DNA of 64,000 bases, from the NCBI RefSeq assembly GCF_003334785.1, contig NZ_QOWV01000017.1, one strand, 5' to 3'. Made by a program: the position numbers and the translations under genes. Below are positions 4,498 to 4,670 of the stretch, in pieces. The notes under the pieces were generated by a model. It was given only the letters and a program-made list of their open reading frames with translations, had not been told where the DNA came from and made no database searches. Source of the DNA: Escherichia coli (GTDB lineage Bacteria; Pseudomonadota; Gammaproteobacteria; Enterobacterales; Enterobacteriaceae). Numbering within the stretch: position 1 is the first letter of the stretch; every line of letters starts with the position of its first letter.

Positions 4498-4670
4498 GCC
4501 TGATGCGCTACGCTTATCAGGCCTACAATTCTCGCGCCACTCGTAGGCCGGATAAGGCGTTCACGCCGCATCCGGCAATGGTGACAAATGCCTGATGCGC
4601 TACGCTTATCAGGCCTACAGATTCTTGCGCCATTCGTAGGCCGGATAAGGCGTTCACGCCGCATCCGGCA
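4498..4670. repeat. REP (repetitive extragenic palindromic) array, four units in two inverted pairs (BIME-like)
   Basis: gcctgatgcgctacgcttatcaggcctaca at 4498-4527 and 4590-4619; gtaggccggataaggcgttcacgccgcatccggca at 4543-4577 and 4636-4670. Confidence 0.85.

What the first reader, a model, noticed from the sequence alone, without database searches (positions are those of the whole stretch)
4498..4670. Four-unit REP array inside the yahJI-yahGFED gene string
Two inverted REP pairs sit in the 235-bp gap between yahI and yahG, which are co-oriented. REP/BIME elements can stabilise upstream mRNA, act as partial terminators and bind IHF or gyrase, so the array may split the cluster into differentially expressed segments. 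Track ORFs 4479..4664 and 4523..4762 are REP-derived and not credible genes.
Basis: partly seen in the sequence, partly recalled or inferred. Interest (0 to 1): 0.3.

Follow-up and report, generated by a model that had tools for sequence, protein, structure and literature searches.

The report
Known REP repeat array, yahG–yahI spacer
The four palindromes are real copies of E. coli's common REP repeat, at a site already catalogued as REP23/yahH, and their number there varies from 0 to 10 between strains, so the finding is correct but ordinary.

Summary
Window 4498-4669 holds four REPs: Z 4498-4526, Y 4543-4576, Z 4590-4618, Y 4636-4669. They form two 92/93-bp units in the 235-bp spacer between yahG (stop 4683-4685) and yahI (start 4447), both on the minus strand. 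This is the known REP23/yahH locus. MG1655 has 8 REPs here, O157:H7 has 10, many strains have 2, and about 12% have none. The exact 4-REP allele is rare, about 14 of 5,426 genomes.

I corrected my own typing. The Z copies are the short Z1 type, set between short linkers like those of BIME-2 arrays. That makes this an "atypical BIME", not a canonical BIME-1 or BIME-2. The spacer has no L motif or IHF consensus, no terminator-like site and no sigma-70-like promoter for yahI.

In the mRNA the first Y hairpin (-21 kcal/mol) begins 13 nt after the yahG stop. The likely effect is a generic 3'-exonuclease barrier or mild polarity element. This is inferred, not shown.

Both REP-derived ORFs match previously debated frames (yahH b0322 and EHEC X002) and show no coding constraint. 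Other enterobacteria carry a permease gene in this slot.

Novelty: already known. Interest is low.

The parts
4683..6101 (-). yahG (DUF1116/YlbE-AllG-like protein, 472 aa). Its stop codon UGA is at 4685-4683.
   Evidence: ORF list. 100% match to annotated yahG.
4670..4682 (-). 13-nt spacer (CCUACAUGUUCAU in the mRNA) between the yahG stop codon and the first REP stem.
   Evidence: Sequence and fold. This is within the <16-nt distance reported to let a REP interfere with translation termination (Liang 2015, as cited in PMC12306157).
4636..4669 (+). Y-type REP, with GTAG at 4636-4639 on the + strand. It is the first hairpin in the mRNA.
   Evidence: 0 mismatches to the Y consensus. RNA hairpin -21.3 kcal/mol, z = -4.6.
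4619..4635 (.). 17-nt foot-to-foot linker (AGATTCTTGCGCCATTC), homologous to the corresponding REP325 linker.
   Evidence: Alignment of the unit with a REP325 unit.
4590..4618 (-). Short Z-type (Z1) REP. It contains the IS621 target ATCAGGCCTAC at 4608-4618.
   Evidence: 0 mismatches. RNA hairpin -12.9 kcal/mol. Typed as Z1. IS621 target from PMC11208160.
4577..4589 (.). Head-to-head linker (AATGGTGACAAAT), homologous to the REP325 linker AACGGTGCCGACT.
4543..4576 (+). Y-type REP, second copy.
4527..4542 (.). 16-nt foot-to-foot linker (AATTCTCGCGCCACTC).
4498..4526 (-). Short Z-type (Z1) REP, second copy. It is the last hairpin in the mRNA. It carries the RAYT-type cleavage motifs TGCC|TGAT (4497-4504) and GGCC|TACA (4520-4527).
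   Evidence: Cleavage motifs as defined in PMC3333891.
4448..4497 (-). 50-nt non-repeat leader of yahI. Its last ~30 nt are conserved in Escherichia, Kluyvera, Raoultella and C. amalonaticus.
   Evidence: No sigma-70-like promoter on the - strand.
3497..4447 (-). yahI (carbamate kinase family protein, 316 aa).
   Evidence: NCBIfam NF009007, 649 bits.
4479..4664 (-). REP-derived ORF (61 aa, MRRERLIRPTNGARICRPDK...). Same frame as EHEC 'X002'.
   Evidence: One search compared with the X002 sequence in the PMC4765031 supplement.
4523..4657 (-). REP-derived ORF in the frame of K-12 yahH (b0322). It is 44 aa from the GTG here, against 106 aa in MG1655.
   Evidence: MG1655 annotation.
4546..4615 (+). 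Match to Rfam RF02564 naRNA4 (Y + linker + Z). It scores 78 bits on the + strand and 53.9 bits on the mRNA (-) strand. The gathering score is 59.5.

Best explanation
The element is a tandem array of two BIME units. Each unit holds a Y REP and a short Z (Z1) REP in inverted orientation, joined by short BIME-2-type linkers. In the Bachellier scheme this is an 'atypical BIME'. It occupies the untranslated yahG-yahI spacer of an E. coli phylogroup-A strain. It is the same locus as REP23/yahH of K-12 MG1655, here in a contracted 4-REP allele.

At the DNA level it belongs to the high-copy REP family that the RAYT transposase (rayT) acts on. It gains and loses whole 93-bp units by recombination or slippage.

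At the RNA level the yah genes appear to be read as one transcript, because no promoter-like site precedes yahI. The array would then fold into very stable hairpins starting 13 nt after the yahG stop codon. The most likely consequences are these:
- The hairpins block 3'-to-5' exonucleases, so yahDEFG-containing decay intermediates outlast yahIJ RNA.
- The long untranslated structured spacer adds mild polarity on yahIJ.
- Termination of YahG translation may be slightly impaired.

These effects are probably by-products of a repeat that settled in a permissive spacer, not a tuned regulator. The identity, anatomy and population variation are shown here. All expression effects are inferred from other REPs.
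For: Identity and anatomy:
- Exact Y and short-Z consensus matches, with 0 expected by chance.
- The unit is 82/100 identical to a REP325 unit, with both linkers homologous.
- The Rfam naRNA4 match is above gathering score on the + strand.

Z typing:
- Three published BIME-2 examples carry the 36-nt Z: REP325, the rayT 5' BIME, and sucB-sucC.
- Of 62 distinct L-motif BIMEs, 57 carry the 29-nt Z next to the L motif.

Same locus as REP23/yahH:
-, PMC11551758 and PMC4765031.

Unit-wise variation between strains:
- Spacer inserts of 103, 196, 289, 382 and 475 nt in a spread sample of 57 genomes.
- A REP-less allele in 655 genomes.
- BIME copy number at a locus is known to vary between strains (PMC3333891).

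RNA behaviour:
- Y hairpin -21.3, Z1 hairpin -12.9, whole unit -39 to -41 kcal/mol.
- The spacer as a whole folds with z = -5.3.
- No terminator-like site and no promoter-like site on the - strand.

Precedents from the literature:
- REP hairpins resist exonucleases and mark 3' ends of Rho-dependent transcripts (PMC6061677).
- REPs fewer than 16 nt from a stop codon reduce translation (PMC12306157).
- BIME-associated Rho-dependent attenuation (summarised in PMC4765031).

The array is transcribed in EHEC, transcriptome RPKM 88.
Against: - There are no transcript 3'-end, stability or protein-ratio data for this locus in any strain.
- The yah genes are poorly expressed and their inducer is unknown.
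- The mRNA-sense spacer has C/G = 1.0, with no C-rich, G-poor stretch that would suggest a Rho loading site.
- Strains with 0, 2, 4, 6, 8 or 10 REPs all keep intact yahG and yahI. Any effect must therefore be dispensable or small.
- RNA-seq and ribosome-profiling reads inside REPs are multi-mapping, so the EHEC coverage is weak evidence.
- That yahDEFGIJ is a single operon is an assumption. It rests on the absence of a promoter-like site and on a suggestion in PMC4765031.
Confidence: 0.7

Rival explanations
1. The array is a selected intra-operon regulator, like the malE-malF REP. On this view it is maintained to set a high yahDEFG to low yahIJ expression ratio, or to act as a conditional terminator.
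For: - REPs occupy this junction in E. coli, E. albertii and E. whittamii.
- Lineages that lack REPs still have a stable hairpin shortly after the yahG stop. Of 66 unique downstream sequences, 36 fold with z < -2.
- Even the REP-less E. coli allele has a hairpin.
- The Y REP sits 13 nt from the stop codon in all REP alleles examined.
Against: - Copy number ranges from 0 to 10 REPs within the species, and appears to differ between two BL21 assemblies.
- Enterobacter-type loci have no hairpin; the next gene starts 10 nt after yahG.
- There is no U-tract terminator and no rut-like composition.
- There are no expression data.
Confidence: 0.15
2. The array is entirely inert at this locus. It is a selfish or neutral repeat with no measurable effect on yah expression or on DNA topology.
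For: - Presence/absence and copy-number polymorphism occur alongside intact flanking genes.
- The yah cluster is uncharacterised and poorly expressed.
- The slot is a permissive spacer, apparently left after loss of a permease gene.
Against: Hairpins of -21 to -41 kcal/mol in a transcribed spacer are expected on physical grounds to impede exonucleases. REPs elsewhere have measurable effects.
Confidence: 0.2
3. The array acts at the DNA or nucleoid level. It would be a gyrase-binding site or topological insulator, or a source of naRNA4-like HU-binding RNA.
For: - The Rfam naRNA4 match scores 78 bits on the + strand.
- The architecture and linkers resemble REP325.
- Gyrase preferentially cleaves Y REPs in BIME-2 arrays (PMC6379681).
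- BIME-2 elements lie at supercoiling-domain borders (PMC10592627).
- Anti-naRNA4 also works, so structure rather than sequence matters (PMC4550694).
Against: - The Z REPs are Z1, not Z2, so this is not a canonical BIME-2.
- The strand that reaches the Rfam threshold is antisense to the operon. Its only upstream promoter-like site is a weak 9/12 match.
- The sense strand scores 53.9, below 59.5.
- No gyrase cleavage coordinate at 339.7-340.2 kb appeared in the held, truncated Topo-Seq tables.
- About 12% of strains lack the array.
Confidence: 0.1
4. The array encodes a real repeat protein (YahH/X002). Its translation would matter, for example by relieving Rho-dependent polarity on yahIJ.
For: - Ribosome footprints were reported over the 465-nt EHEC ORF: RPKM 56, coverage 0.61 (PMC4765031).
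- The 93-bp unit equals 31 codons, so both frames stay open through added units.
- RefSeq still lists yahH.
Against: - ORF length tracks repeat number: 44 or 61 aa here, 106 aa in MG1655, 154 aa in EHEC.
- The EHEC ORF is a fusion of two frames caused by a 1-nt deletion.
- Alleles differ by +/-1 and +10/11 nt.
- The ORF is absent from REP-less strains and much shorter in 2-REP strains.
- There is no family hit above cut-off.
- Footprint reads in REPs are multi-mapping.
- EcoCyc describes yahH as 'filled with REP23 sites'.
Confidence: 0.04

Closest known systems
REP23 / yahH (b0322) locus of E. coli K-12 MG1655, and X002 of EHEC EDL933
   Same: It is the same chromosomal junction (yahG-yahI), with the same Y and short-Z REPs, the same linkers and the same flanks. 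Both REP-derived reading frames are shared.
   Different: The window has 2 units (4 REPs, 235-bp gap). MG1655 has 4 units (8 REPs, 421-bp gap) and EDL933 has 5 units. The window equals MG1655 minus two internal 93-bp units. The exact allele is found in about 14 of 5,426 complete genomes.
REP325 (yjdM-yjdN) BIME-2 array, source of naRNA4 (Rfam RF02564)
   Same: Both are tandem arrays of alternating inverted Y and Z REPs with homologous short linkers. The unit is 82/100 identical. Both lie in a spacer between co-oriented genes. The Rfam model matches.
   Different: REP325 uses the 36-nt Z2 REP and has 12-13 REPs. The yah array uses the 29-nt Z1 REP and has 4. Nothing is known about HU binding or nucleoid effects of yah-derived RNA.
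BIME-1 / RIB / RIP elements (IHF-binding)
   Same: They use the same two REP types, Y and short Z.
   Different: BIME-1 is single-copy, with a ~33-35-nt L linker that carries the IHF site (PMC3333891). The yah array is tandem, with 16-17-nt linkers, no L motif and no IHF consensus.
Intra-operon REP mRNA stabilisers (the malE-malF type; Newbury et al. 1987, as cited in PMC6061677)
   Same: The REP hairpins lie just downstream of a stop codon, between co-transcribed genes, and there is no intrinsic terminator.
   Different: The effect on mRNA stability and differential expression has been demonstrated there. It has not been tested for yah.

Membership tests
REP / palindromic unit family of E. 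coli | An imperfect palindrome of about 30-36 nt matching the Y or Z consensus. | tested here: met
   0 mismatches to the Y and short-Z consensus. The same three query sequences are used as 'known REPs' in PMC11208160.
REP / palindromic unit family of E. coli | A conserved GTAG/CTAC tetranucleotide at the foot, and a mismatch in the stem. | tested here: met
   GTAG or CTAC is present at 4523-4526, 4543-4546, 4615-4618 and 4636-4639. The Y hairpins show an internal mismatch in the predicted fold. The requirement is described in PMC3333891.
REP / palindromic unit family of E. coli | Extragenic location and high copy number in the genome. | tested here: met
   The array lies between the yahG stop and the yahI start.
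BIME-2 | Composed of Y and Z2 REPs. | tested here: not met
   The Z copies are the 29-nt form. Published BIME-2 examples carry the 36-nt form. The 29-nt form is the one associated with the BIME-1 L motif in 57 of 62 loci. This typing is inferred from those examples. I could not read the original Bachellier consensus figures.
BIME-2 | Multiple tandem copies, with REP and inverted REP separated by short linkers. | tested here: met
   There are two 92/93-bp units. The linkers are 16-17 nt and 13 nt, and both are homologous to the REP325 linkers.
BIME-2 | In vivo cleavage or binding by DNA gyrase. | not testable with these tools
   No cleavage coordinate was found near the locus in the truncated Topo-Seq tables. 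This is inconclusive.
BIME-1 / RIB (IHF-binding) | A long L linker carrying an IHF consensus between Z1 and Y, in single copy. | tested here: not met
   WATCAANNNNTTR has no match within 4448-4682 at up to 1 mismatch. The L core CTGCAATATATTGAA is absent. The array is tandem.
Atypical BIME (chimera of BIME-1 and BIME-2 motifs; Bachellier 1994 as summarised in PMC3333891) | A mixed combination of Y, Z1, Z2 and linker motifs, occurring in multiple copies. | tested here: met
   Y + Z1 REPs with BIME-2-type linkers, in tandem.
Rfam RF02564 naRNA4 | Covariance-model score at or above the gathering threshold (59.5 bits). | tested here: met
   78 bits on the + strand at 4546-4615. The mRNA-sense strand scores 53.9 bits, below threshold. 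Expression and HU binding cannot be tested here.
Intrinsic (Rho-independent) terminator | A G+C-rich hairpin followed by a U tract. | tested here: not met
   0 terminator-like sites on either strand in 4200-5000. The hairpins are followed by CCUACGA and AUUUGUC, not by a U run.
Protein-coding gene yahH / X002 | A reading frame conserved in length and phase among strains, or a match to a protein family. | tested here: not met
   ORF length follows repeat number. Alleles differ by +/-1 and +10/11 nt. No NCBIfam hit is above cut-off. Translation itself cannot be tested here.

The most novel reading that the evidence does not exclude
The yahG-yahI spacer may be the scar of a lost AzgA-family nucleobase permease gene that is still present there in most other Enterobacterales. 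On this reading the variable REP array that colonised the scar acts as a copy-number 'rheostat'. It would set how much transcription and mRNA survival reaches the carbamate kinase and amidohydrolase genes yahIJ, relative to the oxamate-carbamoyltransferase-like yahEFG genes. It might do so with help from translation of the REP-encoded YahH/X002 frame, which would relieve Rho polarity.
Probability: 0.06. Interest if true: 0.5.

Novelty: already known. Interest (0 to 1): 0.15.

Why it matters
As a discovery it matters little. REP arrays are textbook elements, and this one is already catalogued (REP23) and discussed (yahH, X002).

It has some practical value:
- The spacer should not be annotated as a gene.
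- It is an unstable 93-bp tandem repeat that can collapse in assemblies or mislead variant calling. It was flagged as a 'gene conversion' site in PMC5809092.
- The natural series of 0, 2, 4, 6, 8 and 10 REPs in an otherwise conserved operon junction would be a convenient system for measuring how REP dosage affects mRNA stability and polarity.

Tried and rejected
1. From memory I first typed the Z REPs as Z2 and called the array a canonical BIME-2. I rejected this after comparing three published BIME-2 loci and 62 L-motif BIMEs. The short Z is the BIME-1 partner, so it is Z1.
2. IHF binding: there is no consensus in the spacer.
3. Intrinsic terminator or a yahI promoter: none found.
4. Rho loading site by composition: none evident.
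5. Gyrase cleavage at the locus: gene names are absent from the Topo-Seq supplement, and no 339.7-340.2-kb coordinates appear in the truncated table. This is inconclusive.
6. Term-seq 3' ends: the supplement of PMC6061677 is not held.
7. The primary papers by Liang 2015, Gilson 1991 and Clément 1999 are not held. I used secondary citations instead.
8. The REP-less 58-nt insert is not another dispersed repeat. It occurs once per genome.
9. NCBIfam search of the REP ORFs gave nothing above cut-off. There is a spurious sub-threshold SidA hit for MG1655 YahH.
10. The window is not MG1655. It shows a few mismatches per 10 kb. It also reaches rayT within 64 kb, a span of about 96 kb in MG1655.

Full report
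**Observation**

Reading 4300-4900 and running the repeat finder shows two direct units: a 31-nt family at 4497/4589 and a 50-nt family at 4528/4621, spaced 92/93 bp apart. Each unit holds two palindromes. The Y-type REP consensus matches 4547-4576 and 4640-4669 with no mismatch. The short Z-type consensus matches 4498-4526 and 4590-4618 with no mismatch. Shuffles of the window expect 0.00 matches for either.

The REP foot motif occurs eight times in 64 kb against 0.52 expected. All eight lie in this array or in a second one at 63.5 kb. The flanking ORFs are yahI (3497-4447, minus strand) and yahG (4683-6101, minus strand). The gap between them is 235 bp.

**Where the window comes from**

The window is the reverse complement of the yah region of a phylogroup-A E. 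coli strain. It is close to K-12 but not MG1655. Against MG1655 it shows a few mismatches per 10 kb. The strains identical over 24 kb are a small group that includes CEA106S, WP5-S17-ESBL-10, 'K-12 GM4792' and OV2. The window also reaches rayT at its far end, a span that covers about 96 kb in MG1655.

**The locus is already known**

In MG1655 the same junction is 421 bp long. It carries eight REPs and an annotated 'putative uncharacterized protein YahH' (b0322). EcoCyc curators describe yahH as 'filled with REP23 sites' (PMC11551758). Neuhaus et al. found the EHEC version, five repeat blocks forming a 465-nt ORF they named X002. They reported it as transcribed and covered by ribosome footprints, and they discussed it as a BIME with a possible 'triple function' (PMC4765031). 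Maddamsetti and Lenski listed yahG/yahI among apparent gene-conversion sites (PMC5809092).

**Anatomy and typing**

In mRNA sense (minus strand) the order is as follows:
- yahG UGA
- 13 nt of spacer
- Y REP
- 17-nt linker
- Z REP
- 13-nt linker
- Y REP
- 16-nt linker
- Z REP
- 50 nt of leader
- yahI AUG

From memory I first called the Z copies Z2 and the array a BIME-2. The data contradicted this.

Three loci published as Y/Z2 BIME-2 all carry a 36-nt Z (GCCTGATGCGACGCTGGCGCGTCTTATCAGGCCTAC). They are REP325, the source of naRNA4; the BIME 5' of rayT that Ton-Hoang et al. used as substrate B268; and sucB-sucC. The yah array carries the 29-nt Z instead.

To decide which Z type belongs to BIME-1, I collected BIMEs that contain the L-motif core from metagenome contigs. 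Of 62 distinct loci, 57 had the 29-nt Z next to the L motif and only 2 had the 36-nt Z. The short Z is therefore Z1.

The yah unit is still 82/100 identical to a REP325 unit, and both linkers are clearly homologous. The main difference is a Z centre that is 7 nt shorter. So the array combines BIME-1's REP types with BIME-2's tandem organisation and linkers. The Bachellier scheme, as summarised by Ton-Hoang et al., calls this an atypical BIME.

- IHF binding is a property of the BIME-1 L linker. The spacer has no L motif, and no IHF consensus even with one mismatch.
- Gyrase cleavage is documented for Y/Z2 BIME-2 arrays and mainly hits the Y REP (PMC6379681). This array has Y REPs but is not a canonical BIME-2. 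I found no cleavage coordinates for the locus in the held part of the Topo-Seq tables, which is inconclusive.
- The array is not an intrinsic terminator. No hairpin-plus-U-tract site exists on either strand.
- The mRNA-sense spacer has no C-rich, G-poor composition that would suggest a Rho loading site (C/G = 1.0).
- No sigma-70-like promoter precedes yahI on the minus strand. yahIJ therefore probably depend on read-through from upstream, as Neuhaus et al. also suggested when they proposed a yahDEFGIJ operon.

**RNA properties**

Each Y REP folds to -21.3 kcal/mol and each Z1 REP to -12.9 kcal/mol. A whole Y-Z1 unit can form an extended hairpin of -39 to -41 kcal/mol. The whole spacer folds far better than shuffled sequence (z = -5.3).

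The first stem begins 13 nt after the yahG stop codon. That is inside the <16-nt distance at which REPs were reported to stall terminating ribosomes and lower translation (Liang et al. 2015, cited in PMC12306157). REP hairpins are established barriers to 3'-exonucleases and frequently define the steady-state 3' ends of transcripts (PMC6061677).

From this I infer the most likely mode of action. The upstream yahDEFG message is stabilised relative to yahIJ, with mild polarity on yahIJ. No step of this has been shown for this locus.

**Population and comparative evidence**

I queried 5,426 complete E. coli genomes with the non-repeat flanks only. A rank-spread sample gave 57 genomes with the complete locus, with these spacer inserts:

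| Insert (nt) | REPs | Genomes |
|---|---|---|
| about 56 | 0 | 10 |
| 103-113 | 2 | 23 |
| 196-207 | 4 | 2 |
| 289-290 | 6 | 5 |
| 381-382 | 8 | 14 |
| 475 (O157:H7) | 10 | 3 |

The steps are exact multiples of 93 bp, with occasional +/-1 and +10/11-nt variants. The exact window allele occurs in about 14 genomes.

The REP-less allele has a unique, single-copy 58-nt sequence with its own hairpin. It is present in 655 genomes. One BL21 assembly has 8 REPs and one BL21(DE3) assembly has 6. This may be real instability or an assembly artefact.

REPs occupy the same junction in E. albertii and E. whittamii. In E. albertii the duplicated unit includes the last ~45 nt of yahG.

In most other Enterobacterales the slot holds a 516-aa membrane protein gene. 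This is true of the Citrobacter freundii complex, Enterobacter, Buttiauxella, Providencia, Serratia and Pantoea. Sources name the protein 'xanthine permease' or AGZA-family permease. It has no Pfam or NCBIfam hit.

Lineages without that gene have short spacers filled with their own palindromic elements. A stable hairpin soon after the yahG stop is common: 36 of 66 unique sequences fold with z < -2. It is not universal, and Enterobacter-type loci couple the next gene directly to yahG.

This pattern fits a permissive spacer that attracts palindromic repeats. It gives only weak support for selection of a 3' hairpin after yahG.

**The two ORFs**

ORF 4479..4664 translates to MRRERLIRPTNGARICRPDK.... 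This is the N-terminal frame of X002. ORF 4523..4762 contains the yahH (b0322) frame, which is 44 aa from the GTG here against 106 aa in MG1655.

Both frames stay open only because the unit is 31 codons long. The EHEC ORF is a fusion of the two frames created by a 1-nt deletion. Length follows repeat number, and out-of-phase alleles exist. No protein family matches above cut-off.

**Verdict**

The finding is a correct identification of an ordinary, already catalogued repeat element. The added value here is fourfold:
- the corrected typing (Y/Z1 atypical BIME, with no IHF site);
- the demonstration that this is a rare contracted allele of a 0-10-REP tandem-repeat locus;
- the mapping of both ORFs to known disputed frames;
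- the comparative context of a lost permease gene.

The functional interpretation remains a plausible but untested generic inference.

Noticed in passing
window 63476-64000: A second REP array (Y, Z2, Y, Z2 at 63476-63663) lies here. It is the 3' flanking BIME of rayT (yafM), the REP-associated tyrosine transposase. The C-terminal 106 codons of rayT sit at 63676-63996 on the minus strand, and the gene is cut by the window end. The enzyme thought to mobilise REPs is therefore encoded about 59 kb from the yah array.
   Followed up: partly
L018:926-2476 and loci L018-L084, compared with window 4448-4682: In 55 of 74 related loci from other Enterobacterales, a ~516-aa membrane protein gene lies between yahG and yahI. 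Sources name it xanthine/AGZA-family permease, and it has no Pfam or NCBIfam hit. Escherichia, Kluyvera, Raoultella and C. amalonaticus lack it and have short spacers filled with repeats. The 'yahH' slot looks like the scar of a lost transporter gene.
   Followed up: partly
L004:1585-1642 (E. coli strain elppa9) and 655 other genomes: The REP-less yahG-yahI allele carries a unique 58-nt single-copy sequence with a hairpin (CCCTTCTCCC-TTCT-GGGGAGAGGGG in mRNA sense). The hairpin resembles the CCCTCTCCC...GGGAGAGGG elements at the same junction in Kluyvera. Whether this allele is ancestral or imported is unresolved.
   Followed up: partly
L008:2186-2500 (Escherichia albertii): The spacer is 315 nt because of a tandem duplication. 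The duplicated unit includes the last ~45 nt of yahG together with one Y and one Z1 REP. This is a different route to array growth from whole-BIME-unit amplification.
   Followed up: no
L002 (BL21, CP060121) versus hit H106 (BL21(DE3), CP081489): Two assemblies of closely related B strains differ at this locus, with 8 and 6 REPs. This is either real instability in laboratory lineages or a collapse of the 93-bp repeats during assembly.
   Followed up: no
window 4516-4526 and 4608-4618: Each Z1 REP contains the natural IS621 (bridge-RNA recombinase) target ATCAGGCCTAC. The array therefore offers two preferred IS621 insertion sites.
   Followed up: no
window 49640-49715 and 43084-43283: tRNA-Thr(CGT) lies on the minus strand. 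This is thrW, which from my own knowledge is the CP4-6 prophage attachment site in K-12. An Rfam IS009 match (202 bits) lies nearby. The window spans yahK to rayT in 64 kb against about 96 kb in MG1655, so about 32 kb of K-12 DNA in this interval, probably much of CP4-6, is missing from this strain.
   Followed up: no
L089:5565-5669 (MG1655 yaaX-yaaA): This BIME has the L motif but the long Z2-type REP instead of Z1. It belongs to the rare class seen in 2 of 62 L-motif BIMEs, and it shows that REP type and linker type can recombine.
   Followed up: partly
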